Positions 1,009 through 27,986 of a stretch of DNA of 64,000 nt are shown here, piece by piece. The notes beneath the pieces are model-generated. The model ran no database searches. It was not told the DNA's origin and was given only the letters and a program-made list of their open reading frames with translations. Every line of letters begins with the position of its first letter. Position 1 is the stretch's first letter. The translations under genes and the position numbers were made by a program. The stretch is taken from the NCBI GenBank assembly GCA_017822615.1, contig GCA_017822615.1_4530.1. One strand, 5' to 3'. This DNA comes from a phage.

Positions 1009-1152
1009 ATGCATCATTCGGTTTGGTCGGAACAAGAAGAGGACGAAGGTTACTTTATCTACCGAGAAGAAGAGGATTGGCCCGACACAAGTAATGATCT
1101 TTTACTTCCAGACGCTAGTTTTTTCGAGGATAACTTAAGAGAGGAGGATTAG
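1009..1152 (+). CDS. small acidic protein (47 aa)
   Basis: ATG with RBS aaggagag; not in track (<60 aa); fills intergenic gap. Confidence 0.35.
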   Translation: MHHSVWSEQEEDEGYFIYREEEDWPDTSNDLLLPDASFFEDNLREED

Positions 1153-4157: not shown

Positions 4158-5272
4158 TGCAACAAACAAATCAAACGCTGTATGGTAAAGATTCAAAAGG
4201 AAAACTTAAACAGTGGACAGTATATACAGATGGTGCAGTTGTTACTGTAGCTCATGGAAGAGTAGGTGGAAAGATCACAGAAAAATCTTATACAGCAGAA
4301 GCAAAAAACATTGGTCGTTCCAATGAAACAACACCGGAAGAACAAGCTGAACTTGAAGCTTTTGCCAAATGGACAAAACAGTTAAAGAATGGCTATTATA
4401 AAACAAAAGAAGAAGCTGAAAACCATGTTCCTTCCACACCAATGAAATGCCAGGATTATAAAGATTATCCTGAAAGGGTTGTGTTCCCTGGTTATGCACA
4501 ATACAAACTGAACGGGTTACGTTCTATGATTAACATGAAAGGGGAGTGTTTATCAAAAGCTGGGGAAGTGTATAACCTGCCACCTCATTGGAAAGGTATT
4601 CCAAACTTTATTAGTGAAGTTGTTGGTCATCCTCTTGATGGTGAAGTGTTTGCTGGGTTAGGTGTCCTTAGTCTGCAACAAATTAACAGTGCTTGGAAGA
4701 AGCATAATGCAAATACACCTTTGCTGAATTATTACGTATACGATATTCCAGTTCCAGGTCTACCGTTTGAAAAACGTGTTGATGCTCTTGCTGCTCTTAA
4801 GGCAGTAGTTGAAGATTATGGTCTTGACGAGCTTATTTGTGTAGTTCATACAGAGTATATTGAAAACCAAGAGCGGTTTGACGCTTTCTATGAAAAAGCT
4901 TTACTTGAGAAAGCTGAAGGTGTAGTATATCGTAATGCTCACGGAGTTTACGAATTTGATAAACGTTCTTATGACGTTATTAAACGTAAGCCTCGCCACA
5001 CCCTTGAAGTTAAAGTAACAAATTCAAAAAGCGATAAAAATGGCGATGGAGTGTTGACAGGTGAGATGGAAAATGGTAAAGTAGTCGAATTCTTAATGCG
5101 TAAAGATGCTCATGAGACTATCAATTATCGTAAAGCAGAGAATGCTTCTACCTTGATTAATCAGTTCGTTGAAATAGAGTATGAAGAATTTTCAGATGAA
5201 GGTATTCCAACAAAACCTGTTGGTGTTCGTATTCGAGAAATGATCCCAGGCACTTGGGAACCAGCAGAGTAA
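4145..5272 (+). CDS. ATP-dependent DNA ligase (T4 gp30-like)
   Basis: PGYAQYKLNGLR resembles T4 PAFAQLKADGAR (motif I); motif III LDGEVF, IV EGVVYR, V DVIKRK. Alternative start ATG 4157. Confidence 0.75.
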   Translation: MGGLMQQTNQTLYGKDSKGKLKQWTVYTDGAVVTVAHGRVGGKITEKSYTAEAKNIGRSNETTPEEQAELEAFAKWTKQLKNGYYKTKEEAENHVPSTPMKCQDYKDYPERVVFPGYAQYKLNGLRSMINMKGECLSKAGEVYNLPPHWKGIPNFISEVVGHPLDGEVFAGLGVLSLQQINSAWKKHNANTPLLNYYVYDIPVPGLPFEKRVDALAALKAVVEDYGLDELICVVHTEYIENQERFDAFYEKALLEKAEGVVYRNAHGVYEFDKRSYDVIKRKPRHTLEVKVTNSKSDKNGDGVLTGEMENGKVVEFLMRKDAHETINYRKAENASTLINQFVEIEYEEFSDEGIPTKPVGVRIREMIPGTWEPAE

Positions 5273-5281
5273 GGAGGAAAA

Positions 5282-5476
5282 ATGTTCTTAGCCATTTTAA
5301 TCGTTTTCAGTGTACTTTCTTTTTATTGTATGAATGCTTCGGAAAACTTTCCTAAGAATTCAAAGAAAAGAACCGTATGTGTTGTGATTGATTCATGTAT
5401 GTCTGGAGTTGGGTATGCGGTAGTTTCTTGTTTCTTAGCTTATCATTGTTCAAAATACCTGGAGGCATTTTTATGA
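5282..5476 (+). CDS. small hydrophobic protein
   Basis: RBS aaggagga; hydrophobic N-terminus. Confidence 0.45.
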   Translation: MFLAILIVFSVLSFYCMNASENFPKNSKKRTVCVVIDSCMSGVGYAVVSCFLAYHCSKYLEAFL

Positions 5477-5655
5477 TAATTTTAGCAACAATTCTTATGA
5501 TGCTGATAGCAATTGCTATTGTAATTCTGGCATCTTTTCCAGCGGATAAATGGTATTTCAATATTCCACGTATGCTTGTTTTCGGTTTCGCAGGAATTTA
5601 CATGGGTGAGACTGTAGTAAATATTAGCAACTTTCTAGAAAGCTATTTTAAATAA
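5473..5655 (+). CDS. small membrane protein (60 aa)
   Basis: ATG 5473 after ctggagg; two hydrophobic helices; track ORF 5395..5655 read as over-extended. Confidence 0.5.
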   Translation: MIILATILMMLIAIAIVILASFPADKWYFNIPRMLVFGFAGIYMGETVVNISNFLESYFK

Positions 5656-5664
5656 GGAGTTATA

Positions 5665-6390
5665 ATGATCGAGAATTTTTTTAAAGATATTAAGTTCGAT
5701 ACTGAATTTTTCAAAAATGCAGCGAAGCACGTGATTGATTGGAATGCTAAAGCACGAGGTGGTGAACAACCTGAATTCACTCAAGAGCTATTTATGTCCC
5801 AAATCGGATTCGTTCGTGAAGAGCTTAAAGAGTATGAAACAGCCGCGAAAGTAAACGATCATGTAGAACTCTTGGATGCAGCAGCGGATATTTTTGTAGT
5901 ATCCAGTTATCTGACCTACATGTTCTTTGGTGAAGAACATACGATGAATTTCTTGGACTATGCTGTAGGCGATGTTTTTACTCCAACTGTGTATACTGAT
6001 TTTGATGCTTTGGAACAAACATTTACAGAGCCAGTTCAAATGGCACTAATGGCTGCTGGTATTATGCGTATGTCTCGTGACACTCTAATCCGTTCAAAAT
6101 ATCCAGAAAAGAAAGTTATTAAAGAGGTATTGAAAAGTAATGATTCCAAGTATCCAACTAAACAACAGTTGCTGAAAACTTGGAAAACTTCGGATATCGA
6201 TTCAGCCATTGCACAAGAATGCGCTGCAATTGAAGAACGAAATGCCAATCGTCCAGAAGGGGCATACACTGGTGTTCATGCTGTTTATAATGAAAAACAG
6301 AAAGTGTATGTGTTCTTTGATGATAAAGGTAAGATCATGAAACCATCGACCTTTGTCAAACCTAATATTGCAGGTATTATTAATAAGTAA
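5665..6390 (+). CDS. hypothetical protein, possible MazG-like nucleotide pyrophosphohydrolase
   Basis: EELKEYETAA...ELLDAAADIF resembles all-alpha NTP-PPase motif; RBS aaggag. Confidence 0.45.
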   Translation: MIENFFKDIKFDTEFFKNAAKHVIDWNAKARGGEQPEFTQELFMSQIGFVREELKEYETAAKVNDHVELLDAAADIFVVSSYLTYMFFGEEHTMNFLDYAVGDVFTPTVYTDFDALEQTFTEPVQMALMAAGIMRMSRDTLIRSKYPEKKVIKEVLKSNDSKYPTKQQLLKTWKTSDIDSAIAQECAAIEERNANRPEGAYTGVHAVYNEKQKVYVFFDDKGKIMKPSTFVKPNIAGIINK

Positions 6391-6446
6391 TGTTGTAAGC
6401 CGCCCTTTATGGGCGGTAATGTGAGATGTATTAAATAGGAGGAAAC

Positions 6447-7325
6447 ATGTTTGTAAAATCTTTTAAATCCGCTCTGCCTATGGTTGTTGGTGACAATGCT
6501 TCTGTAGCATCCCTTAACAGCATTACAGATATTCCTCTGGAATTTGTAACAGCAGAAGGCTCCCAGTCACACACTATCGGTCTTGTTCGTTTCGAAGATG
6601 ACTCTAAATTTGTAAAAGAGTTTTCAGATCTTGAACTGCTTAATGTAGGTCAATCTGTGAAGAAGGTAGATAAAAAGAAAGTTAAACGTATTCTGAATGA
6701 ACGTCTAGAAGAAATGCGTCAGGACATGGAGAGCGAAGGTAAAGAGTTTTATGTCGATAAAGAAGTAGTCAAAGCAATGAAAGAAGATATTGAATTTGCA
6801 CTATTGCCTGAAACAGAACCTGAAGATTTCTTTAACTATGTTGTCTTGGATAAAACTACGAATCTTCTTTATGTTCTTAATGGAAGTAAAAAGGTTGCAG
6901 AAGAGATTACTTCTTTCCTCCGTTCCGTCCTGGGGACTTTCCCTTCGGTAGGTTTTAGTGTGCACGAAGAAGCTATTGTAAAAGGTTTTGGTGAATTGCT
7001 GGAGAATCACGAAGCAGATCGTATTACTCTCGGAAATTATATCAAAATGGAGGATAGCGAGGGCGTTGTTGTTTGGAGTAAAGAATCTCTATACGAGTCT
7101 AAAGCTGTCGAACTAAAAGAAGATGGTAAAGATGTTGTTGCAATCGGTCTTGAATATGACGGTGTTGTAGATTTTGTAGTGGATAAAGAGTTTAAACTTT
7201 CTAAACTACGTTTTCCGAAATATTTTGCAGACGAAGAAGGTAGTATTGAAGCTTCAGTCCTTCTGTGCTTCAATGAGATTCGAGGTCTGATGGAAGATTT
7301 AACCAAAGCAACAATCCTTAAATAA
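6447..7325 (+). CDS. recombination-associated protein RdgC-like
   Basis: LLYVLNGSKKVAEEITSFLRSVLGTFPSVGFS resembles E. coli RdgC [32 protein letters not shown]; about 290 aa. Confidence 0.65.
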   Translation: MFVKSFKSALPMVVGDNASVASLNSITDIPLEFVTAEGSQSHTIGLVRFEDDSKFVKEFSDLELLNVGQSVKKVDKKKVKRILNERLEEMRQDMESEGKEFYVDKEVVKAMKEDIEFALLPETEPEDFFNYVVLDKTTNLLYVLNGSKKVAEEITSFLRSVLGTFPSVGFSVHEEAIVKGFGELLENHEADRITLGNYIKMEDSEGVVVWSKESLYESKAVELKEDGKDVVAIGLEYDGVVDFVVDKEFKLSKLRFPKYFADEEGSIEASVLLCFNEIRGLMEDLTKATILK

Positions 7326-7329
7326 GTTC

Positions 7330-7382
7330 TTGACTTGCGGGATTAGTTATGATATTATGCCTACCTACTTAATGAGGTAGGC
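7330..7382 (+). promoter_or_regulatory. sigma70-type promoter with 5'-UTR hairpin
   Basis: TTGACT 7330-7335, 17-nt spacer, TATTAT 7353-7358; hairpin gcctacc...ggtaggc 7359-7382, then RBS aggagg. Confidence 0.6.
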
Positions 7383-7397
7383 TTTTTAGGAGGCGTT

Positions 7398-7607
7398 ATG
7401 AAAAAGATTCTGACAGTCGTTCTTTTAGCTTTTAGTTTCACAGTAGCAGCAGGTCAAATTACTTTAATCTTGTCTGATTCTGAAGTTAATGGCAACACAA
7501 AATATTGCTACTATTCTAACGCTAACCAAGATGAAGTTATAGCAATCCCGAAAAGTCGTCAATGTCCGTATACTAAAACATTCTCAACAGAGGATGACGA
7601 TGAATAA
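7398..7607 (+). CDS. small secreted protein (signal peptide)
   Basis: MKKILTVVLLAFSFTVAAGQ signal-peptide-like N-terminus; RBS aggagg. Confidence 0.6.
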   Translation: MKKILTVVLLAFSFTVAAGQITLILSDSEVNGNTKYCYYSNANQDEVIAIPKSRQCPYTKTFSTEDDDE

Positions 7608-7619
7608 TTAGGGGGAAAT

Positions 7620-8738
7620 ATTAGCGGTTATATTTTAATTAAACCTGAAGATCTTCATTTATATGTCAACGAAGAAACAATAGCTGCAATTGATTATGAT
7701 CAGATCGCTTTCCAAGCAGCGTCTGCATTAGAGAAAAGAACAATCATTGCGAAGCACATCCCTTCAGGTGCTCAAAAGGAATTTAAAAATAAGACAGAGT
7801 TTTGGGGTAAAAGCAAGACTAAAATTGGAGGTTGGCTAGGAGATACAAATGCAGAAAGAGCCTCCAAAAACAAACGTCCCTTCACAAAGGAAGAGTTCGA
7901 AATCATTGATAAGCAATATCCGCCAGAAGATATCGGACACACCTTCCAAGCAGCTAAAACAAAAGTCTTAGGTATTCTAAAACATCTACGTTTAGAAAAA
8001 TATTGCGGAGTTATTGGCGTAGGAAAAACTTTCAGACACGCCTTCAAAATGCCTGTAGAATATAAATCTGAACGATTAGATATCAAACCACTCCAGCTTT
8101 CAGAAACCAAAGATTATCTTGTGGAGTTCCACAATGGTGATGTTGTTACTGTAATAGAAGCTGATGATGAGTTAGAGAAGTATGGTTTCCAAGGTTATAA
8201 AGATTATAAAAGGACGGGTAAATTTTCTTATATCGTTGTATCTATAGATAAAGATAGTTTACATACTCCTAGTATCCTTTTTAATTTCTACAAAGAGGAT
8301 GGAGTATTTAAAAATCCAGATATAATTCTTATTGACGAGTCTATTGGCGACATATGGATCGTAGATAAAGGTAAAAAGAAAGAAGTTAAAGGTTGGGGCA
8401 GTTACTGGTTAGCATATCAGATGCTAATGGGAGATAAAACAGATAGTATCCGACCTTATCAAGATTTTGATATTAAGTTCGGAGATATTACTTGTTTTAA
8501 TCTTCTTTCAGCTTGTAAAACTCAAGCAGAACTTTTCCAAACAGTTAAAGATACTTACTACTCATGGTTCCCAGATGGTGTTAATTTTACTTCTTGGGAT
8601 GGAGAAGAAGTCCATATGACAACAGATGAATGGATAGAAACAATTTTCCAGTTGGTATACATGAAACGCTGGGATAATGACGATACAACATTTGAGAGTA
8701 TGCTTCAGTCATACATCTCGCAACAGGAGGCAGAGTGA
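7620..8738 (+). CDS. rnh: RNase H / 5'-3' flap endonuclease (T4 rnh-like); start codon non-canonical or missing
   Basis: IAAIDYDQIAF resembles T4 ICLIDFSQIA; IEADDE and MGDKTDSI resemble FEN motifs. Frame is open from 7608 but holds no ATG/GTG/TTG before 8049. Confidence 0.65.
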   Translation: MSGYILIKPEDLHLYVNEETIAAIDYDQIAFQAASALEKRTIIAKHIPSGAQKEFKNKTEFWGKSKTKIGGWLGDTNAERASKNKRPFTKEEFEIIDKQYPPEDIGHTFQAAKTKVLGILKHLRLEKYCGVIGVGKTFRHAFKMPVEYKSERLDIKPLQLSETKDYLVEFHNGDVVTVIEADDELEKYGFQGYKDYKRTGKFSYIVVSIDKDSLHTPSILFNFYKEDGVFKNPDIILIDESIGDIWIVDKGKKKEVKGWGSYWLAYQMLMGDKTDSIRPYQDFDIKFGDITCFNLLSACKTQAELFQTVKDTYYSWFPDGVNFTSWDGEEVHMTTDEWIETIFQLVYMKRWDNDDTTFESMLQSYISQQEAE

Positions 8739-9694
8739 GCAGATTAACAGAAGAGCAGAAAGCAGATATCCTTAGTATGAGTGCAGAGGGTATGTCTTCT
8801 CGCAATATTGCAGCAATTGTTTTAGGTAGTCCAACAAGAAAAAGCACAGTGAACGATTTCCTTGCACGATTCGGAGCAAGTAAACAAGAGCCAGTTAAAA
8901 AGAAACAACCAGTTATTAAAATTATTGATGTTGAAACTGCACCAGAGATTGCATATACTTTCCGTCGATTCAAAGCCTTCATTTCTCCAGATCAAGTAAT
9001 TCGTAGGGGTTATTTGTTATCTTACTCTTCTGCCGACCTGTATACTGGTGAAGTGGAAGGTAAGAACTTGTCTTCTTATCCTCTTTTTGATATTGATCAT
9101 ACAGATGATTGGGAGCTTTGCCAAGATCTTTGGAACCTTCTGAATGAGGCAGATGTAGTTGTGGCACACAACGGATATAAGTTTGACCGTGCATACATTA
9201 ACCAACGATTTGCATATCACGATATGGCTCCTCCTTCTAATTATGTAGTTGTTGATACATTGAAGGCAGCTAAGAAACAATTTGCACTTCCTTCCAACTC
9301 CCTTAAAGAAATGGGAGCATATTTCGAAACAGAAAGTGAAAAACTGGATAACGAGGGGTTCCCTTTATGGAAAGCATGTTGTGAAGGTGATCGTGATGCT
9401 TTTGAACGTATGCAGATTTACAATGATGGTGATGTTGTTTCGCTCCGTGATTTGTATATGAAAATCCTTCCGTGGATTCCACAGCATCCTAACTTATCCG
9501 CTTATTACACAGATGAGAAGGTCCGTTGTTCTCGTTGTGGCAGTGATCACGTTCACGTTGTTACTGGTAAACAATACCACACTGCGGTAAGTTCTTTCGA
9601 TATCATTCGTTGTGAATCTTGTGGAGGTTTGTCACGTAGTAGAGCAAACACCAGATCCAAAGATAAACGAGCAGCAACTATTATTGGAATCTAA
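8735..9694 (+). CDS. DnaQ-like 3'-5' exonuclease with N-terminal HTH and C-terminal Zn-ribbon
   Basis: Exo motifs IIDVETAP, AHNGYKFD, LRDLY; C-terminal CSRCG...CESCG. Confidence 0.6.
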   Translation: MSRLTEEQKADILSMSAEGMSSRNIAAIVLGSPTRKSTVNDFLARFGASKQEPVKKKQPVIKIIDVETAPEIAYTFRRFKAFISPDQVIRRGYLLSYSSADLYTGEVEGKNLSSYPLFDIDHTDDWELCQDLWNLLNEADVVVAHNGYKFDRAYINQRFAYHDMAPPSNYVVVDTLKAAKKQFALPSNSLKEMGAYFETESEKLDNEGFPLWKACCEGDRDAFERMQIYNDGDVVSLRDLYMKILPWIPQHPNLSAYYTDEKVRCSRCGSDHVHVVTGKQYHTAVSSFDIIRCESCGGLSRSRANTRSKDKRAATIIGI

Positions 9695-9700
9695 TAATCA

Positions 9701-9723
9701 GGGAGCTTATTGCTCCCTTTTTT
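9701..9723 (+). terminator. rho-independent terminator
   Basis: Hairpin gggagc-ttatt-gctccc followed by T6. Confidence 0.7.
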
Positions 9724-9724
9724 A

Positions 9725-9753
9725 TTGACAAAAATTTGATATTAGTGTATACT
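9725..9753 (+). promoter_or_regulatory. consensus sigma70 promoter
   Basis: TTGACA 9725-9730, 17-nt spacer, TATACT 9748-9753. Confidence 0.65.
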
Positions 9754-9780
9754 CTGCTAACCACAATAAAAGGAGGAAAT

Positions 9781-10008
9781 ATGAGCATTACATTAACAGG
9801 TAACGAAATTTTCGAACTGTTTGAAATGTTAGGTTTAAACTACACCATCGAGAAAGACCCAGATTTACTTGACGTTAAAATAACAATTCAAGAAGATACA
9901 GCAATCTACAATGATGATGGTGATGTTATCTATCAAGGTAGGGTAGCTTATTATACAGATTACCCAGAAGAAGGCGCAGTAGGAATTCAGGAGGAAAATT
10001 ATGTCTAA
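9781..10008 (+). CDS. hypothetical protein
   Basis: ATG 9781 after aaaggagg; track ORF 9736 overlaps the promoter, so the shorter start is preferred. Confidence 0.6.
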   Translation: MSITLTGNEIFELFEMLGLNYTIEKDPDLLDVKITIQEDTAIYNDDGDVIYQGRVAYYTDYPEEGAVGIQEENYV

Positions 10009-10402
10009 TGCTTTTGATAATCAGGTTGACGGTGATCACTACACAAAAATGGCAATGCAACCTATCGAACTAACTTATTTGGTTGGTGGCACACCTTGTT
10101 TTTGCAAATTGGCAAAATACGCAACACGTATTAAAGGTGAACGTCAGATTAACCTAGATAAAGCTATTCATTGTATCGAACTAGAAAGAACCCTTATGCA
10201 AAATAACACGTATATGGTTCGTGAAAATTATCCATCTATGACAAATGCAGCTAAACATGATCAAGCTATGCTTCTTATTGATTTCTTCACAAAAGATCCT
10301 TTAATCCGAGTGGCACTGAAACACATGTATAACTCTTCTTATGTAGATGCAGTTGAAGCTATTAAACAACTTAAGGAACGTATTAGTGGCGAGCAATACT
10401 AA
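10001..10402 (+). CDS. DUF3310-like protein
   Basis: GDHYTKMAMQPIE matches the G-x-HY...QPIE signature recalled for DUF3310. Confidence 0.55.
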   Translation: MSNAFDNQVDGDHYTKMAMQPIELTYLVGGTPCFCKLAKYATRIKGERQINLDKAIHCIELERTLMQNNTYMVRENYPSMTNAAKHDQAMLLIDFFTKDPLIRVALKHMYNSSYVDAVEAIKQLKERISGEQY

Positions 10403-10491
10403 ACAATATGGAGCAGGAGAAGTTTATAAAATATTCAACCGAAAAGGTGATAAACTTTTACTAACTTTGACTATTCCAGAAACAATGTGCA

Positions 10492-10520
10492 AGGCGGGGT
10501 TAGACCGCCTTTTGTTTTTT
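10492..10520 (+). terminator. rho-independent terminator
   Basis: Hairpin aggcgg...ccgcct followed by tttgtttttt. Confidence 0.65.
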
Positions 10521-10569
10521 AAACACAATATCCCACCAGGGGAATATACAGCTAAAAAGGTGAGCAATA

Positions 10570-11145
10570 TTGGCAGGTGAACCAAAAATAATGTGGGGTG
10601 AAGGAACACCCTGGAAAACACAAGCGGAATTTTATACTTATCTTAGAGGATGTTTTAGAAAAGCATGGATGAGACACCCTAATAAAATTAAGGTTATCAA
10701 TGCAAGGCGTTTTAAAGTTGATCGCGTAGATAAAGACGGCAATGTGATGATAGACAAGAAAACTGGAAAACCAAAACAAGTTTGGAATTGTGAGTGCGAA
10801 ATATGTGGACATAGAGGAGGAATGAAAGACTTCCAAGTGGATCATATTCACGCAGCAAAACAACTTCAATGTTTTGATGATATTCCTCTTTTTGTTTTCC
10901 GTTTAATCTATGTGAAAGAAGAAGATTTGCGAATGGTTTGTAAATTGTGCAACTCTATTCTTGCTTATGCAGACAAGCAAGGCATATCTTTTGAAGAAGC
11001 GAAAGCTGAAAAAGAAGCAATAGCTTTGTGTAGAGCTAAGAAAGATAAAGCTTGGTTGAAGAAGCGTAAAATAGAACCTGAAAGCACAGTAGCGAAACGC
11101 CGCAAACAAATAGTCAAAATCCTATTGCAGGAAATTGAAAGTTAG
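10570..11145 (+). CDS. HNH homing-type endonuclease
   Basis: CECEICGH...QVDHIHAA (Cys pair plus His-x-His); TTG start after aaggtga. Confidence 0.6.
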   Translation: MAGEPKIMWGEGTPWKTQAEFYTYLRGCFRKAWMRHPNKIKVINARRFKVDRVDKDGNVMIDKKTGKPKQVWNCECEICGHRGGMKDFQVDHIHAAKQLQCFDDIPLFVFRLIYVKEEDLRMVCKLCNSILAYADKQGISFEEAKAEKEAIALCRAKKDKAWLKKRKIEPESTVAKRRKQIVKILLQEIES

Positions 11146-11181
11146 TATAAGATAACTATACTAAAAGAGAGAGGAGGTTTT

Positions 11182-11791
11182 ATGCAGATAGTATGTGATT
11201 GGGATTTAGTTGTGGCTCCATTAGATGTTGCTTGGTTAGAATGGTTGAATAAGATTAGTGGACTTGGTGTTAAGATAGACACATTCACAAAAAAATGCAG
11301 ACTATGATCTTACCAACTACTTTCCTGGGTTCAGGGAGGAGTTCAATATAGATCCTTACGGATTTCTGGATAATCCTCATCTCTATGATACAATGGGTTT
11401 TGTTCCAGGTATGCCAGATTTCTTAAAGTATGTTTCAAGGAAAGGTAGCAATCTTTTGATCGCAAGTGTGACAAAAGGTGGTCACTTAAGTTCTAAACAT
11501 AAGCATGTTTTAAGAACGTTAGATACGATTGATTTTAGCAAAGGATCTGGTAACGGCTTTTTTGCTACGAAAGAAAAATACTTATTGCCTTGTGATATAG
11601 CAATAGATGACAGGGCTGATAACCTACTATATTTTCCAGATGAAGTGGTTAAAATATATTTTAATACGCCTTATAAAGATAACCATCTAGAAGAACTAAA
11701 GAAAAAACCAAATGTTGTGATCACAGGTTTAGAAGATCAGTGGCTAACATGTTTGGATGTTTTTAACACTTTGAACAATTTTAAAAACTAA
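11182..11791 (+). pseudogene. HAD-family 5'(3')-deoxyribonucleotidase interrupted by a +1 frameshift at an A7 run
   Basis: N-terminal ORF 11182-11307 carries DWDLV (HAD motif I); C-terminal frame (open from 11279, track ORF 11393..11791) carries IASVTKG and IDD. Frames differ by +1 at A7 11289-11295. Confidence 0.55.
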
Positions 11792-11800
11792 GGAGAAAAA

Positions 11801-12799
11801 ATGACAAAACAGATTTCGGCTAGTATTATTGCGCATTCCATCACTGAAGACGGAAAAGAGATTGTAACTTTTGAACTAGAGTATCCACGTATTATTCATT
11901 CAGAATTGATGACTCACCGCCTGTTCAGTCGTAATGCTGCTTCTAGCCGTGCTATACCTGTTAAAACACTGATTGAAATGGTGCGAAGTCAACCTGCTCG
12001 TCCTTATCGTTTTGGGGCTAACCAACCTGGTATGCAGGATAAAGGTGTTGACCATGATGCTCTTATTGATGCAGGTTATACTGCTCAAGAGTGGTGGGAT
12101 CTTGCCGCGCTTAGTGCAGCACGTTTTGCAGAAGAATTCTCTTTGGCAGGGTACCACAAACAAGTTGCAAACCGTCTTCTGGAACCTTTCCAACGAATTA
12201 AAACAGTTCTGACAGCAACAGAATATGAAAATTTCTGGTGGCTACGTGATGACAAAGAAGCCGATCCTACTATCGAGGCTTTGGCTAAAGAGATGCACAA
12301 AGAGTATGAAGAATCTACACCAGAAGTGCTGAAACCAGGGCAATGGCACACACCTTATGTAGACCATTTCTATGATAGTATTGGCACAGAAGGTGACGAT
12401 CATTTTGTTTTTGGTGGATACTATGTTCAAGATGAATCTGGAGAAGTTGTTGTGCTTACTTTGGAAGAAGCCAAAGCTATTTCAGCTTCGTGTTGTGCAC
12501 AGGTTAGCTATCGTCGTTTGAATGCAACTAAAGATAAAGCTTTAGATATCTATGGTCGTTTGCTAACTGGGCGCAAGGTTCATGCTTCTCCGTTTGAACA
12601 TCAAGCCACCCCAATGCAAGAAACATGCGAACAATACGGAGAGAACTGTTTTGAAGATTTGTTTATCAATGCTCCTTGGGATTTTAACTCTTGGGAACCA
12701 GGTATTACCCATGTAGATCGTAATGGTAAGTTTTGGTCTGGCAATTTCAAAGGCTGGATTCAACATCGTCAACTTTTAACAAATCATACTAAATGGTGA
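11801..12799 (+). CDS. thyX: flavin-dependent thymidylate synthase ThyX
   Basis: RHRLFSRNAASSRAIP matches the ThyX RHRxxSxxxxSxR signature; RBS aaggag. Confidence 0.9.
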   Translation: MTKQISASIIAHSITEDGKEIVTFELEYPRIIHSELMTHRLFSRNAASSRAIPVKTLIEMVRSQPARPYRFGANQPGMQDKGVDHDALIDAGYTAQEWWDLAALSAARFAEEFSLAGYHKQVANRLLEPFQRIKTVLTATEYENFWWLRDDKEADPTIEALAKEMHKEYEESTPEVLKPGQWHTPYVDHFYDSIGTEGDDHFVFGGYYVQDESGEVVVLTLEEAKAISASCCAQVSYRRLNATKDKALDIYGRLLTGRKVHASPFEHQATPMQETCEQYGENCFEDLFINAPWDFNSWEPGITHVDRNGKFWSGNFKGWIQHRQLLTNHTKW

Positions 12800-12815
12800 T
12801 CTGTTTAAATAGTTA

Positions 12816-12876
12816 TTGACTTTAGTATTAGTTTTAGTATAATATAGCACAATACTGGGAGGAGGTGAGTCCTCCC
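12816..12876 (+). promoter_or_regulatory. sigma70-type promoter with 5'-UTR hairpin
   Basis: TTGACT 12816-12821, 16-nt spacer, TATAAT 12838-12843; hairpin gggagga...tcctccc 12857-12876. Confidence 0.6.
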
Positions 12877-12897
12877 ATTCAAAATGAAGGAGAAAAT

Positions 12898-13308
12898 ATG
12901 TCATTAGTAAATACTACAACTTGGGCTACCGTAAGCATGTCTACTGTAATGTCTACCCCTATCTGGAAACTAGAATCAAATAAACACAATGGTAATATCC
13001 CACACGAGAAACAAAATGCTGTTATTAGAGCGTCGCTTGTAATGCTGGGTATGGCTGAAGATTCACACTATTCTGTTGAGCGTAATGTGAATATCCGAAG
13101 CAATAACGATAAGCGAGTAGTGTTTGCAAATACAACGCTTTTCACTTTCCCTGTTTCACCTAATTGTGGTTTTAAACGAATCTATCAAGAAAATGATATT
13201 TTTCATTTTGGTGATGAAGAATTTACAGGTTGGGGTGCGTCACATATTAAGATGGATGATTTCGGTAACTCTTATGATCCTGCGAAAGCAGATGATACTA
13301 ATCAATGA
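12898..13308 (+). CDS. hypothetical protein
   Basis: ATG 12898 after aaggag; track ORF 12865 overlaps the UTR hairpin. Confidence 0.6.
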   Translation: MSLVNTTTWATVSMSTVMSTPIWKLESNKHNGNIPHEKQNAVIRASLVMLGMAEDSHYSVERNVNIRSNNDKRVVFANTTLFTFPVSPNCGFKRIYQENDIFHFGDEEFTGWGASHIKMDDFGNSYDPAKADDTNQ

Positions 13309-13559
13309 GAGGGACAATGACTGATAATAAATATGAAGGCTGTGAAATCGAAGTCTATTTTGATGAAACTGTTGGTTGTAATGTAACTGTAATTCTAGAC
13401 ACTTCAAAACGTTTATCTCCTAAAAGACAAGAAGCAGACCGTCGAGCAAAAGCAAAAGGGTTTGATGACATAACTCATTTTGAAGGTTTTCTATATGCTA
13501 ATGGACTTTTTAATGAAATGAAGTTCGGTTATGATGTAGATGTTTTGAATATGCATTAA
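13305..13559 (+). CDS. hypothetical protein
   Basis: ORF track; ATGA start/stop overlap; alternative ATG 13317. Confidence 0.5.
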   Translation: MRGTMTDNKYEGCEIEVYFDETVGCNVTVILDTSKRLSPKRQEADRRAKAKGFDDITHFEGFLYANGLFNEMKFGYDVDVLNMH

Positions 13560-13575
13560 TAATAGGGAGGAGAAG

Positions 13576-15822
13576 TTGATTCGTTTTGTAACTAAATCTA
13601 ACGGTAAGACAGAGGAGTTTAATCCAGAAAAACTTCGCAAGTGGTCTGAATTTGCAGCAGGTAAACTAAACTGGTCTGAAATTGAATTAGAAGCTGTGAA
13701 GCGGTGTTATGACGGTGTGTCTACACGTGATCTGCATAAAGCAATGATTGCAGCGTGTATTGACAAGAAAACACAAGCTTACAGTGATATGGCAGGAAGA
13801 CTTCTTCTGGGTATGATTTACAAACAGGCTCATGGGGGATACCACAGTATCCCTTCACTGAATACCTTTTATCATGATATGGTAGAACGTGGACATTGGG
13901 CTAAAATGGATTATACTGATGAAGAGATCAAAGAAATCGGTAAGATTGTAAAGCATAATAAAAATCTAACTTATGGTTATTCTGTTTTACGTCAGATGGT
14001 AGATAAATATCTTATTCGAGATGCAGTAAACGATGTGGTGCATGAGTCTCCACAGTTTCTTTTCATTGGTATCGCAATGAAGGTTATGGAGATCCAACCA
14101 AAAGAACGCCGTATAGAAGATATTAAAAAACTTTATACTTATGTTAGCGATCTTAAGATTAATCTGCCATCGCCGTATCTGACAACTCTACGAACTCCAA
14201 TCAAAGGAAGTGCGTCTTGTTGTTTGTTCCGTGCAGACGATACGGCAGAGTCTTTAGCCATTGCTAATTACTTAGCTCATGAGTATACGTTGAATAACGC
14301 AGGTATTGGTGTTAATCTTCAAACTCGTGCCACAGGTCAAGGTGTTAAGAATAATCGTATTATTCATGGTGGTCTTCTTCCATATCTGAAATGGATGGAA
14401 GATAGTGTTGGAGCTTCGAAGCAAGCAAGCCGTGGAGGTAGTGCTACAGTTACCTTTACCATACTTGAACCAGACTTCGACGATCTGATTCGACTGAAGA
14501 ATCCAACAACACCTATAGATAAACGAGTGGATAAACTAGATTATTCTATTGTTGTTAACCGTTCGTTCTTGCGTAGAGCAGCAAAAAACGAAGACTGGAT
14601 GTTAGTTAGTTGTGATGATGCTCCTGAACTTTATGAAGCCTTGTATAAAAGTGAAGAAGAGTTTGATGCAGTTTATGACAAAGTAAGCCGTCGTCGCATT
14701 AAGAAAAAATTTGTTAAGGCTCGTGATCTTCTGACAGAGATTATTGTTCAACGTGCAGAAACAGGACGTATTTACATGTTCTTTGCTGACAACGTTAACA
14801 ACCATACACCTTTCCTGGATACGGTGTATCAATCAAACCTGTGTCAAGAGATCTTCTTACCAACTAAAGCTTTCCACAGTATGCCGGATCTCTTTACTGG
14901 TGAGAATACAGAAGATCAAGAATTGGCTTTATGCTTCTTATCTTCTATTGTCGCTGGTCGTGTCTTACCTGAAGAATATGAGGATGTTGCATACTACACT
15001 GTATTGACAATTGACAACGTTATTGAAACAATGGATTATCCATTTAAACATAACGAAATAACTGCTAAAGCACGTAGATCTATTGGTGTAGGTATTACAA
15101 ACTTAGCGCATTATTTGGCAAGTAATTTTGTAAATTATTCAGATGCTTATGCTAAAAAATTAATGCATGAACTTGCAGAACGTCATTACTTTTGGTTGGC
15201 AAAAGCCTCTCTGCGTCTGGCTAAGGAAAAAGGTAATGCAGAATGGATCGATAAGACCAAATGGCCTCAAGGTTGGCTACCAATTGACACTTATGCTAAA
15301 ACAGTAGATAGTATCGGTAATTTTGATCTTAAAATGGACTGGGAAGGCTTACGTGCTGAAATCATTGAACAAGGTGGTATCCGTAACAGTGTCTTGGCTG
15401 CTATTGCACCTAATGAGTCCAGCAGTTTGGTAAGCAATACTACTAACTCTCTGTACCCTGTTCGTGATACTATTATGTATAAACAAAGTCAGAAAGGTAG
15501 CGTATTATTTATTGTTCCAGATTATGAAAAACTGAAAATGTTCTACCAGTCTGCCTGGGACACTCCGGCTAAAGATCTTGCAGAAATGTATGGTATCTTT
15601 ACCAAGTTTACGGACCAAGGAATTTCTTGTGATTCTTGGCTAGATTATTCTAAATTGGTAGGTGGACGTTTATCAGTGAAAGCTGAGATGCAGTTTATTC
15701 TGAATTTTGCTAGACTGGGTGGCAAGTCATTGTATTACCTTAACAGTAGAACAAAATCAGCAGACTCTTTAGCACAAGAAGATAACTTAAAAGAATCTGG
15801 TTGTGAAGGCTGCTCTATGTGA
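13576..15822 (+). CDS. nrdA: ribonucleotide reductase class Ia alpha subunit
   Basis: 748 aa; ATP-cone-like N-terminus; NLCQEIFL active-site motif; TTG start after gggaggag. Confidence 0.9.
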   Translation: MIRFVTKSNGKTEEFNPEKLRKWSEFAAGKLNWSEIELEAVKRCYDGVSTRDLHKAMIAACIDKKTQAYSDMAGRLLLGMIYKQAHGGYHSIPSLNTFYHDMVERGHWAKMDYTDEEIKEIGKIVKHNKNLTYGYSVLRQMVDKYLIRDAVNDVVHESPQFLFIGIAMKVMEIQPKERRIEDIKKLYTYVSDLKINLPSPYLTTLRTPIKGSASCCLFRADDTAESLAIANYLAHEYTLNNAGIGVNLQTRATGQGVKNNRIIHGGLLPYLKWMEDSVGASKQASRGGSATVTFTILEPDFDDLIRLKNPTTPIDKRVDKLDYSIVVNRSFLRRAAKNEDWMLVSCDDAPELYEALYKSEEEFDAVYDKVSRRRIKKKFVKARDLLTEIIVQRAETGRIYMFFADNVNNHTPFLDTVYQSNLCQEIFLPTKAFHSMPDLFTGENTEDQELALCFLSSIVAGRVLPEEYEDVAYYTVLTIDNVIETMDYPFKHNEITAKARRSIGVGITNLAHYLASNFVNYSDAYAKKLMHELAERHYFWLAKASLRLAKEKGNAEWIDKTKWPQGWLPIDTYAKTVDSIGNFDLKMDWEGLRAEIIEQGGIRNSVLAAIAPNESSSLVSNTTNSLYPVRDTIMYKQSQKGSVLFIVPDYEKLKMFYQSAWDTPAKDLAEMYGIFTKFTDQGISCDSWLDYSKLVGGRLSVKAEMQFILNFARLGGKSLYYLNSRTKSADSLAQEDNLKESGCEGCSM

Positions 15823-24820: not shown

Positions 24821-25313
24821 TCGCCCAACAAGCGATTATTATCCGACACCGCAAAAAGCAATCAATAGTTTGTTTAGTGTTATAGATTTCAAAAATCTAA
24901 AGGAAGAAGGTTGGGTTTTTGCAGAACCTTGCAGAGGTGAAGCTGAAGCGATTTATCGCCATTTTCCTGAAGGTTCAGAATATTGCGAACTTGAAGAAGG
25001 TAAAGATTATTTTAGTCACGAATGGGAAAATCGTCCCGACATTATAATCACAAATCCTCCATTTAAGTTAGCAATGGAGTTCTTGGAAAAGAGCTTAAAA
25101 GAGGCGGATGTTTGTATTTATCTTCTTCGGTTGGGCTTCTTGGAGTCAAAGAAACGACGAGAGTTCCATCAAAAGAATCCACCAACAAACCTTATAGTCC
25201 TTTCAGAACGGCCTTCGTTTGTTGCAGGTGGAACAGATAAGACAGCATACGCTTGGTATGTATACGACCCAAAGAATCGTTTGGGCCTCTCTCAACCATT
25301 TTATTTTGTTTAA
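24804..25313 (+). CDS. phage Dam-like DNA N6-adenine methyltransferase (small)
   Basis: IIITNPPF (motif IV NPPF); N-terminal YYPTP and EPC resemble small phage Dam-family proteins. Confidence 0.55.
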   Translation: MALDYDRPTSDYYPTPQKAINSLFSVIDFKNLKEEGWVFAEPCRGEAEAIYRHFPEGSEYCELEEGKDYFSHEWENRPDIIITNPPFKLAMEFLEKSLKEADVCIYLLRLGFLESKKRREFHQKNPPTNLIVLSERPSFVAGGTDKTAYAWYVYDPKNRLGLSQPFYFV

Positions 25314-25325
25314 GGAGTGTGAACT

Positions 25326-25562
25326 ATGGGTAAACTAATTATGACAGTGGCTATTGATTTTGATGAAGTAGATGAAAGCCTCAACCTTTCACTTTCTACT
25401 GACGTAGATGGTGAAATGGATAATATTGAAGCAGCTACTGCTCTTTTCTTCAAAAAAGCCATTGAAGTTTATGCCGAACATGCTGCAAATCAGGCAGTAG
25501 ATTACGGTGGTATCGTGCGAGCTTTAGTTCACTCTACCGAGGGCAATGACTGGGAAGACTAA
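25326..25562 (+). CDS. hypothetical protein
   Basis: ORF track. Confidence 0.55.
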   Translation: MGKLIMTVAIDFDEVDESLNLSLSTDVDGEMDNIEAATALFFKKAIEVYAEHAANQAVDYGGIVRALVHSTEGNDWED

Positions 25563-25834
25563 TGGCTTACAATTATTACTGCATTTATGCACATGAAAAG
25601 AAAAAAGGTGACACTGGGACTAACGTTTATGCGGAGTCCGAATCTCATGCAAAAGAGATTGGTGCTATCCTTTTATCACGCTGGACTGGAAATAATTACA
25701 GTGCAGAAGATATGTTTGCAGAAGTGGATTCTAGAATCCAAGAAGACAACATAACAACTACGGATATACTTATACTCCCTTTTCGGAGGGAGTATTTTAA
25801 GGAGGGATTATGCAGAGCGGAGAAGAACTTTTAG
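25562..25834 (+). CDS. hypothetical protein
   Basis: ORF track. Confidence 0.55.
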   Translation: MAYNYYCIYAHEKKKGDTGTNVYAESESHAKEIGAILLSRWTGNNYSAEDMFAEVDSRIQEDNITTTDILILPFRREYFKEGLCRAEKNF

Positions 25835-26004
25835 AGAAACAATTCTCAACGCGTCAACAAGCTTTAAGTTATATGGTTTTTCTAAGCAATCTTGATGTGA
25901 ATGAGATACTTTTACGGCGCGAAGGTAATTTCTGGAGCGTTAAATATCATGCAACAAGGTCTGTAATCTACCTGGAAGAGGCGGAATTCTCTTTGGTAGA
26001 ATGA
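25810..26004 (+). CDS. hypothetical protein
   Basis: ORF track. Confidence 0.5.
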   Translation: MQSGEELLEKQFSTRQQALSYMVFLSNLDVNEILLRREGNFWSVKYHATRSVIYLEEAEFSLVE

Positions 26005-26018
26005 TCCGAGGAGTAGTT

Positions 26019-26591
26019 ATGCGTTCAACTTTCACTGGCAAAATAAATGCTGGTTTGATTTTTACAGCAGTAAGCATTCTTAGCAAAAAGTTTAAAGTTG
26101 TTAACTTACCTGTGTGTGTCGATTTCGATCATGTTTTTGATCCTTCGAACCCCACTCGTTGCATAGTAAGGAGTAATGTTGAAAACCCAACAGAAAATCT
26201 TTTTTATGTAACAAAACCATCTCAAAGCATACTTAACCAGGTTGAGGCGAAATTGATACCTAACGGTAAATATTACTCCTTTTTACCTTGTAAGTCGGTT
26301 GAAGTAGAGAATAGCAATACTTTCGCTAATAACTTGTCTGTATTCGTTTTCTTTGTTTCACAGGAAGACGAAACAGATGAAATGGTAGCAACAGTGAGAT
26401 CACTTTATGACTCTTTAGGGGTTGTTTATAGTCAACAAGTGTGCGAAAATAATAAAGCCTGTGTAGATTTCATTATCAACGGTATTTGTGTTTGTAGAGT
26501 AGAATCTTTTTGGCTGCACGATACATATGTGACTGTAGCAGAGGTTATATCTGAACCAAGATTTAGTCATGCGGTTTCGTTAATAATTTGA
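26019..26591 (+). CDS. hypothetical protein
   Basis: ATG 26019 after gaggag (track start 26001). Confidence 0.55.
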   Translation: MRSTFTGKINAGLIFTAVSILSKKFKVVNLPVCVDFDHVFDPSNPTRCIVRSNVENPTENLFYVTKPSQSILNQVEAKLIPNGKYYSFLPCKSVEVENSNTFANNLSVFVFFVSQEDETDEMVATVRSLYDSLGVVYSQQVCENNKACVDFIINGICVCRVESFWLHDTYVTVAEVISEPRFSHAVSLII

Positions 26592-26601
26592 GGAGGAAGG
26601 A

Positions 26602-26931
26602 ATGGAAATTACTACAGAACAAGCCCTTATCGACGAGGGTCGTAAAATCTTAGAAAAGTATTTAGGGGAGATTCATAAAACCCCTGGCTATTTGGGTTGG
26701 AGAATTGTTGAAGCTGTAGATTTCCTTCCTCGTAACAGTAAAAACGTCGAAATGCGATCTCTTTTCTTATTAGTAAAGGTGGATGGGGATACGCCTTTTA
26801 AAGATGCCGCAGAACATATTGAAAAAGTTGAAGAGAAAGCTTATGCAGAATTTGCCGATCTTGTTTTAGAACAAGAGATTGAAGGAAAGGTGAATATTTT
26901 TATTTTCTTAGATTTTGAGGAGGATAAGTGA
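26602..26931 (+). CDS. hypothetical protein
   Basis: ORF track; RBS gaggagg. Confidence 0.55.
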   Translation: MEITTEQALIDEGRKILEKYLGEIHKTPGYLGWRIVEAVDFLPRNSKNVEMRSLFLLVKVDGDTPFKDAAEHIEKVEEKAYAEFADLVLEQEIEGKVNIFIFLDFEEDK

Positions 26932-27671
26932 TCATACACAGAGAAATTACTGTTAAAAGCGATCAAGATCTTTTTATAATTGGAGATCTACACGGTTGTT
27001 ATAATTTGTATGAAAAAGGAAAGGCAAAGTTAGGTATCCGAGATACAGATGTGGTTGTATCTCTAGGAGATCTTACTGACCGTGGAAAGCAAAACTTTCG
27101 TTGTGTTTTAGAATTTACTCGTAAACACAATCGCTACGCTATTCGTGGCAATCATGAAGACATGATGATTAAAGGTATGCTGGAAGGAGATCGTAGCTAC
27201 TACGAGTGTTGGTATCAAAATGGAGGATATACGGTCTTTGAAGAATGTGGTGAAGAAGGAGCTACAGCCTTAGCAATGATGACAGAAGATTTACCTGTTG
27301 TTCTCATTGTTAACTACAGAGGCATGAAACTTGCGTTTATTCATGGTGGGTATCCATCTTCTTTGGAATATCTCCCTGTAACAGATATTCCAGAATACAT
27401 TTCGAAGATGACAAAAACACAGGAAAACCGTTTTGCTGAAGCACTTATGTGGGACAGAGATATGGTAGACTGTGCTAAAGAGGGAATGAAACTTCCTGTT
27501 GTGATGGGTGTGGATTATGTGTTTCATGGACACTCTTATGTAAAAACACCTATTATCAATGCGAATCGTGTTTATATGGATACTGGATCTGTGTTCAATA
27601 ATAACTTAACATTTGCTTATTTCGATATGGACGGTGGTCTTCAATTTTATTCAACTCTTGAGGAGGATTAA
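26928..27671 (+). CDS. Ser/Thr protein phosphatase (lambda-PPase-like metallophosphatase)
   Basis: GDLHG, GDLTDRG, GNHE motifs. Confidence 0.8.
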   Translation: MIIHREITVKSDQDLFIIGDLHGCYNLYEKGKAKLGIRDTDVVVSLGDLTDRGKQNFRCVLEFTRKHNRYAIRGNHEDMMIKGMLEGDRSYYECWYQNGGYTVFEECGEEGATALAMMTEDLPVVLIVNYRGMKLAFIHGGYPSSLEYLPVTDIPEYISKMTKTQENRFAEALMWDRDMVDCAKEGMKLPVVMGVDYVFHGHSYVKTPIINANRVYMDTGSVFNNNLTFAYFDMDGGLQFYSTLEED

Positions 27672-27979: not shown

Positions 27980-27986
27980 GGTGATT

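What the first reader, a model, noticed from the sequence alone, without database searches (positions are those of the whole stretch)
11182..11791. HAD 5'-deoxyribonucleotidase gene split by a +1 frameshift at an A7 homopolymer
The N-terminal 38 codons (ATG 11182, HAD motif I DWDLV) end at TGA 11305-11307, while the rest of the enzyme (motifs II-IV) continues in the +1 frame, which is open from 11279. Removing one A from the A7 run at 11289-11295 restores a single ORF of about 203 aa. This is either a homopolymer sequencing error, a recent inactivating mutation, or expression by transcriptional or ribosomal slippage. An HNH endonuclease gene lies immediately upstream (10570-11145).
Basis: seen in the sequence. 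Interest (0 to 1): 0.5.

Follow-up and report, generated by a model that had tools for sequence, protein, structure and literature searches.

The report
One-base frameshift in phage deoxyribonucleotidase gene
One extra A in a run of A's breaks a small nucleotide-metabolism gene in this copy of a well-known E. coli phage; the gene is intact in every deposited relative listed, so this is an ordinary strain-level mutation or read error, not a special way of expressing the gene.

Summary
ATG 11182 opens a 41-codon ORF that stops at TGA 11305-11307. The rest of the gene continues in the +1 frame to TAA 11789-11791. Removing one A from the A7 run (11289-11295) gives a 202-aa protein.

The window is a Phapecoctavirus (phAPEC8/ESCO13-like E. 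coli myovirus). The repaired protein is letter-for-letter a protein found on 293 public contigs. All 60 listed of 65 closely related deposited phage genomes span 609 nt against the window's 610, and all seven fetched relatives without the frameshift read A6. The nearest contig (99.94% over 9 kb) also has A6. Eight gene haplotypes differ at up to 17 nucleotides but at no amino acid, so the intact gene is under strong purifying selection. Pfam NT5C, conserved HAD-type motif residues and a confident model whose top 16 PDB matches are 5'(3')-deoxyribonucleotidases or designs derived from one support the enzyme assignment.

A conserved programmed frameshift is rejected. A7 also occurs in two other independent assemblies, one on a different haplotype, so the A6 run has slipped more than once. 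I favour a genuine recent loss-of-function insertion (about 0.6) over a sequencing or assembly error (about 0.3). Only reads can decide. Interest is low.

The parts
11182..11307 (+). N-terminal fragment ORF of the deoxyribonucleotidase gene (41 codons plus TGA). It carries HAD motif I (D6-W-D8-L-V); the last 4 codons (KCRL) are out-of-frame junk.
   Evidence: D6 and D8 are invariant in 23 homologue clusters. The exact 41-aa product is on only 2 public contigs.
11289..11295 (+). A7 homopolymer, the lesion. Relatives have A6 here (codons ACA AAA AAT = T-K-N).
   Evidence: All 60 listed relatives span 609 nt against the window's 610.
11279..11791 (+). Remainder of the gene in the +1 frame, open from 11279 to TAA 11789-11791. 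It holds motif II (IASVTKGGH), motif III (GNGFFATKEKY) and motif IV (IDDRADN). The first in-frame start is ATG 11393 (132 aa), which has no Shine-Dalgarno sequence.
   Evidence: The 132-aa fragment is annotated in NCBI as HBB2900444.1.
11173..11177 (+). Shine-Dalgarno GGAGG, 4 nt upstream of ATG 11182.
   Evidence: Read directly.
11135..11162 (+). Sigma-70-like promoter match (TTGAAA-16-TATACT, 10 of 12) just upstream of the gene. This is a consensus match only.
   Evidence: The number of such sites in the region equals the shuffle expectation, so this is weak.
10570..11145 (+). Upstream HNH endonuclease gene (191 aa from TTG 10570; gene callers also use ATG 10591). It is present in all relatives.
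   Evidence: PHROG 1985 'HNH endonuclease', E=8.5e-66. The Pfam HNH match is below threshold. Annotated in relatives.
11801..12799 (+). Downstream flavin-dependent thymidylate synthase (ThyX). Its Shine-Dalgarno sequence overlaps the deoxyribonucleotidase stop (TAAGGAGAAAAAATG).
   Evidence: Pfam Thy1, 34.8 bits. Annotated in relatives.

Best explanation
The window comes from a Phapecoctavirus (phAPEC8/ESCO13-like E. coli myovirus). Its 202-aa NT5C-type HAD 5'(3')-deoxyribonucleotidase gene sits in a nucleotide-metabolism block (exonuclease, HNH, dNMPase, ThyX, ribonucleotide reductase). The gene has gained one A in an A6 run through slipped-strand mispairing during replication, turning ACA AAA AAT into ACA AAA AAA T. 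Translation from ATG 11182 now ends after 41 codons, leaving a peptide with only the motif I nucleophile. The part carrying motifs II-IV has no ribosome-binding site of its own and lacks the nucleophile. The allele is therefore effectively null. It is a recent, non-programmed, strain-level lesion in a dispensable accessory gene. The same run has slipped independently in at least one other lineage, so it is a minor mutational hot spot. Shown here: the lesion, the A6 state of relatives, purifying selection on the intact gene, the fold and family, and the recurrence. Inferred: that the extra A is in the phage DNA rather than only in the assembly, that the allele is null, and that the gene is dispensable.
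For: (1) A6 and an intact 609-nt CDS occur in all 60 listed of 65 phage records at 95% identity or more. Read directly, the same holds in L001, L002, L003, L009, L010 and L011. (2) The nearest contig, L013, differs from window 4735-13695 by 4 substitutions plus this single A. (3) The repaired protein is an exact sequence on 293 contigs, whereas the 41-aa fragment is on 2. (4) Eight haplotypes show up to 17 nt differences and 0 amino-acid differences on both sides of the run, so the full-length protein is what selection maintains. (5) All 23 homologue clusters are single ORFs of 195-205 aa. (6) A7 is also present in Logan contigs from SRR25429215 and SRR22287330. The SRR22287330 contig differs at 17 sites in the gene, including sites 12 nt upstream and 7 nt downstream of the run, which points to independent origin. 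Neither contig has any other indel against the window over 6.1 kb. (7) The assembly is not prone to homopolymer errors. Over 33.7 kb aligned to ESCO13 this is the only homopolymer length difference. The window's other private indel, at 25763, is reproduced exactly by an independent Logan assembly. (8) Family: Pfam NT5C scores 26.1 bits against a 24.8 cut-off, and 20 of 23 homologues match. The AF2 model has pLDDT 87.5. The top 16 Foldseek PDB hits are 5'(3')-deoxyribonucleotidases or designs derived from one. (9) Rescue by slippage is unlikely. E. coli RNA polymerase showed no detectable slippage on fewer than eight A's and no deletion slippage on poly(A) (PMC6260861). Selection against slippery runs appears at about 9 nt (PMC1088944).
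Against: No reads were available, so the extra A in this particular genome is not independently confirmed. The Logan assembly of the probable source run (SRR12605489) has no record of either the 41-aa or the 132-aa product. That could mean a contig break at a polymorphic site, or that assembly reading A6. The link between the window, SRR12605489 and the NCBI TPA record is itself an inference from one exact 2.75-kb match. Homopolymers are the classic site of sequencing error. Dispensability and enzyme activity have not been tested.
Confidence: 0.6

Rival explanations
1. Sequencing or assembly error. The phage DNA has A6 and an intact gene, and the extra A was introduced by base-calling or consensus at the homopolymer.
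For: The lesion lies exactly in a homopolymer. All listed relatives, and the 99.94%-identical contig L013, have A6. Apart from the extra A, the gene differs from its closest relatives at only one synonymous site, with no amino-acid change. The Logan assembly of the probable source run lists neither split product.
Against: Of the 28 A6, 34 T6 and 5 A7/T7 runs in the window, this is the only one inside a gene that differs from relatives over about 34 kb, which is unlike an error-prone platform. The same A7 appears in two other independent k-mer assemblies that have no other indels over 6.1 kb. The window's other private indel is reproduced by a second assembler. A control look-up found +1 homopolymer alleles only in small accessory genes (1 of 9 other runs) and none in the ligase, lysozyme or Rml genes. 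Uniform error would not be expected to give that pattern, though the sample is small.
Confidence: 0.3
2. Programmed recoding. The A7 allele is expressed as the full-length enzyme by +1 ribosomal frameshifting at A-AAA-AAA, or by RNA polymerase slippage that deletes one A or adds two.
For: A +1 slip of tRNA-Lys from AAA (11290-11292) to AAA (11291-11293) would re-pair perfectly and give the wild-type T-K-N sequence (read). A-runs are known slippery sites.
Against: The arrangement is not conserved: about 99% of public copies encode the protein in one frame. There is no stimulator. No Shine-Dalgarno-like element precedes the run, and the 0-frame A-site codon is the common AAA. E. coli RNA polymerase shows no detectable slippage on fewer than 8 A's and no deletion slippage on poly(A). 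Run lengths used for slippage are about 9.
Confidence: 0.03
3. Contingency (phase-variable) locus. The A6/A7 run acts as a reversible on/off switch for the deoxyribonucleotidase, kept because each state is favoured on different hosts or in different nucleotide-pool conditions.
For: A7 arose at least twice on different haplotypes. The A6 run is retained in all haplotypes despite nearby synonymous changes. The Logan contigs of the probable source run are fragmented, which would fit a mixed population.
Against: Six A's is short for a contingency tract. AAA is simply the preferred Lys codon in a 39% GC genome that has 62 A6/T6 runs in 64 kb. A7 is found in only about 3 of several hundred assemblies. 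Another A6 run in an unrelated small gene shows the same low-frequency A7 alleles, so the behaviour is generic. The A5 allele was not found.
Confidence: 0.05

Closest known systems
Intact orthologue in Phapecoctavirus genomes (e.g. ESCO13_00113 AOQ27232.1; Ro121lw AXA27911.1; phAPEC8_00114 AFU62687.1; phAPEC8_ev052 VUF54337.1 'deoxyribonucleotidase')
   Same: Once one A is removed the amino-acid sequence is 100% identical. The position is the same, between the HNH endonuclease and ThyX, with the same RBS and stop.
   Different: The window has A7 instead of A6, which splits the gene into a 41-codon ORF and an out-of-frame remainder.
5'(3')-deoxyribonucleotidases of the NT5C family (Pfam PF06941; human mdN/cdN, PDB 1mh9, 4l6a, 2i7d; S. 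epidermidis 3bwv)
   Same: The fold is HAD Rossmannoid with a small helical cap (TM 0.65-0.79, E down to 9e-8). Conserved motif-type residues are DxDxV (motif I), S/T (II), K (III) and DD (IV). The Pfam score is above the gathering threshold.
   Different: Sequence identity is only 13-17%, and no PDB match is found by sequence. PHROG 420 is labelled 'unknown function'. Substrate and activity are untested.
Phage T5 dmp (5'-deoxyribonucleotidase)
   Same: From my own knowledge: a phage-encoded dNMP phosphatase that acts on the nucleotide pool.
   Different: Not compared here. Homology to T5 Dmp was neither tested nor claimed.
Programmed frameshifts and transcriptional slippage at A-runs (dnaX A-AAA-AAG; Thermus dnaX A9; IS elements A9; Citrobacter tssM)
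   Same: A homopolymeric A run lies at the junction of two frames.
   Different: Those sites are conserved in their lineages, are 8-9 nt or longer or carry stimulators, and give two functional products. This site is A6 and in frame in nearly all relatives.

Membership tests
NT5C / 5'(3')-deoxyribonucleotidase (HAD superfamily), for the repaired 202-aa product | Pfam PF06941 score above the gathering threshold | tested here: met
   26.1 bits against a 24.8 cut-off, E=9.4e-6, residues 4-172. 20 of 23 homologue clusters match, best E 4.4e-8. The margin is narrow.
NT5C / 5'(3')-deoxyribonucleotidase (HAD superfamily), for the repaired 202-aa product | HAD catalytic motifs I-IV (DxDx[T/V]; S/T; K; DD) | tested here: met
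   D6, D8, S95/T97, K130/K132 and D142-D143 are invariant in 23 clusters. Assigning these residues to the motifs is my reading of the alignment.
NT5C / 5'(3')-deoxyribonucleotidase (HAD superfamily), for the repaired 202-aa product | Fold closest to solved deoxyribonucleotidases rather than to other HAD phosphatases | tested here: met
   The AF2 model has pLDDT 87.5 and pTM 0.85. Foldseek PDB ranks 1-16 are all mdN, cdN, 3bwv or mdN-derived designs. Other HADs start at rank 17 with E at least 2e-4 and TM about 0.4-0.5.
NT5C / 5'(3')-deoxyribonucleotidase (HAD superfamily), for the repaired 202-aa product | Mg-dependent dephosphorylation of deoxyribonucleoside monophosphates | not testable with these tools
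   This needs an enzyme assay.
Programmed ribosomal frameshift / transcriptional slippage gene | Two-frame arrangement and slippery site conserved among orthologues | tested here: not met
   All 60 listed of 65 relatives, 23 homologue clusters and 293 or more contigs encode a single ORF. A7 is found in about 3 assemblies.
Programmed ribosomal frameshift / transcriptional slippage gene | Slippery run long enough, or a stimulatory element present (SD-like sequence, rare or stop A-site codon, downstream structure) | tested here: not met
   A7 is below the 8-A limit of detection for E. coli RNA polymerase and below the roughly 9-nt length used for slippage. No SD-like sequence precedes the run and the A-site codon is AAA. 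Downstream RNA structure was not examined.
Programmed ribosomal frameshift / transcriptional slippage gene | Full-length product made from the shifted template | not testable with these tools
   This needs mass spectrometry, a reporter assay or RNA-seq.
Phase-variable contingency locus | Both tract lengths common and interconverting within populations | tested here: inconclusive
   A7 occurs on at least 2 haplotypes but in under about 1% of assemblies. No read-level data were available. Another A6 run behaves in the same way.
HNH endonuclease (upstream gene 10570-11145) | Profile match to an HNH family | tested here: met
   PHROG 1985 'HNH endonuclease', E=8.5e-66. The Pfam HNH (E=0.031) and Endonuclease_7 (E=0.036) matches are both below threshold.

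The most novel reading that the evidence does not exclude
The A6 run at codons 36-38 of the Phapecoctavirus deoxyribonucleotidase gene is a recurrently slipping, reversible on/off switch. Phage populations would carry A6 and A7 subpopulations, and loss of the dNMP phosphatase would be favoured on some hosts or in some nucleotide-pool states. This would make it a contingency locus in a lytic phage metabolic gene.
Probability: 0.05. Interest if true: 0.45.

Novelty: already known. Interest (0 to 1): 0.12.

Why it matters
It matters little beyond annotation. The two ORFs (one already deposited as 'hypothetical protein' HBB2900444.1) should be annotated as one frameshifted or pseudogenised deoxyribonucleotidase gene, or corrected if reads show A6. 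Two modest points follow. First, this phage group's dNMPase, labelled 'hypothetical' in most records, is a well-supported NT5C-fold enzyme under strong purifying selection (no amino-acid change across 8 haplotypes). Second, natural A7 null alleles exist on at least two backgrounds, so ready-made knockouts are available to test what the enzyme does for the phage.

Tried and rejected
1. IMG/VR pattern scan for the A6/A7 junction found no hits, so it was uninformative.
2. The complete E. coli genomes collection gave no match to the gene.
3. The JGI metagenome scan gave a single contig, with A6.
4. Sequence searches of the PDB with the protein and with a 23-sequence profile found nothing significant. 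The fold search was needed instead.
5. NCBIfam had no family for the protein.
6. I tried to recover the source sample's own Logan contig across the A-run through a window-specific exonuclease variant (P259T). That variant is on 9 contigs, none of the four shown is from SRR12605489, and every shown contig that reaches the gene has A6. The window's A7 therefore remains unconfirmed by a second assembler.
7. The two phage records with two features under the match (dw-ec, BI-EHEC) looked like possible further split alleles. The extra feature is a spurious antisense ORF and the gene is intact.
8. A link between the frameshift and the adjacent HNH endonuclease was rejected. The HNH gene and its junctions are the same in relatives with the intact gene.
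9. A literature search for 'Phapecoctavirus' plus 'frameshift' returned nothing relevant.

Full report
**Observation**

ATG 11182 is preceded by GGAGG at 11173-11177 and opens an ORF that reads MQIVCDWDLV...TFTKKCRL. That ORF stops at TGA 11305-11307. The run at 11289-11295 is A7. The +1 frame is open from 11279 and runs to TAA 11789-11791. Deleting one A gives a 609-nt ORF of 202 aa. A7/T7 runs are rare in the window, with five in 64 kb, against 62 A6/T6 runs.

**What the window is**

Megablast places the window in the genus Phapecoctavirus (phAPEC8/ESCO13-like E. coli myoviruses, Stephanstirmvirinae). ESCO13 is 99.4% identical over 25 kb. Ro121lw and Schickermooser are 99.9% identical over the 2.4 kb around the gene. 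The local gene order is 3'-5' exonuclease, three small ORFs, HNH endonuclease, the gene in question, ThyX, two small ORFs, then ribonucleotide reductase.

**A-run length in relatives**

- All 60 listed of the 65 deposited phage genomes with at least 95% identity span 609 nt against the window's 610 nt.
- Reading the DNA directly shows CACAAAAAATG (A6) in phAPEC8_ev052, Ro121lw, ESCO13, dw-ec, BI-EHEC and a 150-kb metagenome contig.
- These records annotate a single 609-nt CDS. One (LR597654) calls it 'deoxyribonucleotidase' and one (PQ433349) calls it "5'-3' deoxyribonucleotidase".
- The repaired window protein is an exact sequence present on 293 public contigs, in a 90%-identity cluster of 69 members. 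The 41-aa N-terminal fragment is on two contigs. The 132-aa C-terminal fragment is on record for one contig and carries an NCBI TPA annotation, HBB2900444.1.
- A Logan contig (SRR10098752, L013) is 99.944% identical to window 4735-13695. It differs by four substitutions and this one A, and it has A6.
- All 23 more distant homologue clusters (50-81% identity) are single ORFs of 195-205 aa.

The two-frame arrangement is therefore not a property of the gene family or of this phage lineage.

**Selection on the gene**

I compared eight gene haplotypes: the window, two Logan A7 contigs, Ro121lw, ESCO13, dw-ec, BI-EHEC and the metagenome contig. They differ at up to 17 of 609 nucleotides. After normalising the run they differ at no amino acid, on either side of the run. 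Selection therefore maintains the full-length 202-aa protein. The A7 alleles are too young to have accumulated any further damage.

**What the gene encodes**

- Pfam NT5C (PF06941) matches at 26.1 bits, just above its 24.8 cut-off. It matches 20 of 23 homologues.
- PHROG 420 matches at 2e-34 but has no assigned function. NCBIfam and sequence searches of the PDB found nothing.
- The alignment shows invariant D6-x-D8, S95/T97, K130/K132 and D142-D143. I read these as HAD motifs I-IV.
- An AlphaFold2 model built from the alignment is confident (pLDDT 87.5, pTM 0.85).
- The 16 best Foldseek PDB matches are all 5'(3')-deoxyribonucleotidases or designs built on one: S. epidermidis 3bwv, human and mouse mdN and cdN, and the ECH13 design. 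E-values run from 9e-8 to 9e-6 and TM-scores from 0.65 to 0.79. Generic HAD phosphatases follow with much weaker scores.

The enzyme assignment is well supported at the level of fold and motifs. Activity and substrate remain untested.

**Consequence of the extra A**

The 41-aa product retains only motif I. The remainder has no Shine-Dalgarno sequence before its first in-frame ATG (11393) and lacks the nucleophile. Neither piece should be active; this is an inference.

Rescue by recoding is unlikely, for these reasons.
- A +1 slip of tRNA-Lys on A-AAA-AAA would re-pair perfectly. However, there is no stimulatory element, and the competing A-site codon is the common AAA.
- In a systematic reporter study, E. 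coli RNA polymerase showed no detectable slippage on fewer than eight A's and no deletion slippage on poly(A) (PMC6260861).
- Genome-wide selection against slippery runs becomes evident at about nine nucleotides (PMC1088944).
- I did not test whether this phage uses only the host polymerase.

The ThyX Shine-Dalgarno sequence overlaps the normal stop codon. Premature termination about 480 nt upstream could therefore reduce coupling or cause polarity; this too is an inference.

**Recurrence of A7**

The 41-aa fragment led to two Logan assemblies from different sequencing runs, SRR25429215 (79-kb contig) and SRR22287330 (57-kb contig). Both have A7.
- Neither is the window: they differ from it at 46 and 56 sites over 6.1 kb.
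- Neither has any other indel against the window over that stretch.
- The SRR22287330 gene differs from the window's at 17 sites, including sites 12 nt upstream and 7 nt downstream of the run. Its closest A6 relative is ESCO13, with 8 differences.

The insertion has therefore arisen at least twice.

As a control I simulated the +1 product at nine other A6/T6 runs in window genes and looked each one up exactly.
- One of the nine is in the public collection. It comes from the 78-aa gene at 25326-25562 (run at 25452) and is on three contigs.
- None was found for the ligase, lysozyme, RmlB or RmlD genes, or for the other four small genes tested.
- The A5 allele of the deoxyribonucleotidase gene is also absent.

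Low-frequency homopolymer frameshift alleles are thus a general feature of small accessory genes in these phages, not a peculiarity of this gene.

**Real mutation or error?**

In favour of a real mutation:
- The window is not a noisy homopolymer assembly. Over 33.7 kb aligned to ESCO13, the A-run is the only homopolymer length difference. Further on, the only window-private homopolymer differences are two intergenic ones, at 37947 and 39471.
- The window's other private single-base indel removes the T of a TGA stop at 25763. A 2,752-bp Logan contig from SRR12605489 reproduces it exactly and is an exact substring of the window.
- A7 recurs in two clean short-read-style assemblies.

In favour of an error:
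- The lesion is in a homopolymer.
- The Logan assembly of the probable source run lists neither split product.
- My attempt to reach that contig through a neighbouring variant protein failed.

I put a genuine recent insertion at about 0.6, error at about 0.3, and a functional reading (recoding or phase variation) at under 0.1 combined.

**Comparison with known systems, and verdict**

The gene is a known, if poorly annotated, member of the NT5C/HAD deoxyribonucleotidases, and it is already present in dozens of deposited genomes. The lesion is a textbook slipped-strand frameshift. It fails the defining test of programmed frameshifting, which is conservation of the two-frame arrangement, and it lacks a sufficient slippery site. 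It is ordinary and rates low interest.

The practical outcome is an annotation fix. The two ORFs should become one frameshifted gene or pseudogene. The intact orthologues, mostly labelled 'hypothetical protein', can be named NT5C-family 5'(3')-deoxyribonucleotidase-like.

Noticed in passing
window 25562-25834 (indel at 25763): Compared with ESCO13 and Ro121lw, the window lacks the T of the TGA stop of a conserved 67-aa gene (CTACG-GATATAC against CTACGTGATATAC). The result is a 90-aa product whose tail overlaps the start of the next gene (25810). The site is not a homopolymer. A 2,752-bp Logan contig from SRR12605489 is an exact substring of window 25255-28006 and includes this deletion, which probably identifies the source sample. 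The 90-aa protein is on that one contig only, whereas the 67-aa form is on hundreds.
   Followed up: yes
window 25326-25562 (A6 run at 25452): The simulated A7 frameshift product of this 78-aa gene (46 aa) exists on 3 public Logan/ENA contigs, although the window itself has A6. This is a second example of a low-frequency homopolymer frameshift allele in a small accessory gene of these phages.
   Followed up: partly
window 1009-1152 (T run at 1119): The run is T6 in the window and ESCO13 but T5 in Ro121lw. This changes the C-terminus of a 47-aa gene, which Ro121lw annotates at 42 aa. It is another homopolymer length polymorphism among deposited genomes.
   Followed up: no
window 11182-11791 and relatives (L002, L003, L005, L006, L009-L011): Across eight haplotypes, all of the up to 17 nucleotide differences in the deoxyribonucleotidase gene are synonymous. 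This is unusually strict conservation for a gene labelled 'hypothetical' in most records.
   Followed up: yes
window 1-25000 compared with 10500-12900: The window is mosaic. Overall it is closest to ESCO13 (99.4% over 25 kb), but in the dNMPase gene it has 1 difference from Ro121lw against 13 from ESCO13. This is consistent with recombination among co-circulating Phapecoctaviruses.
   Followed up: partly
phage records MG065650.1, OP562383.1, MH252123.1 (matches to window 10500-12900): Records named Campylobacter phage B15, Acinetobacter phage vB_AbaM_ABPW7 and Klebsiella phage ZCKP1 are about 99% identical to E. coli Phapecoctaviruses in this region. Their host labels look doubtful.
   Followed up: no
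window 90 and 3766: In-frame 3-nt repeat-unit differences from relatives occur at these two sites (one more TGA unit at 90, one fewer GTT unit at 3766). These are trinucleotide repeat slippage in coding regions.
   Followed up: no
window 37947 and 39471: Window-specific homopolymer length differences (G4 against G3; A5 against A6) lie between ORFs, in the more divergent minus-strand early region.
   Followed up: partly
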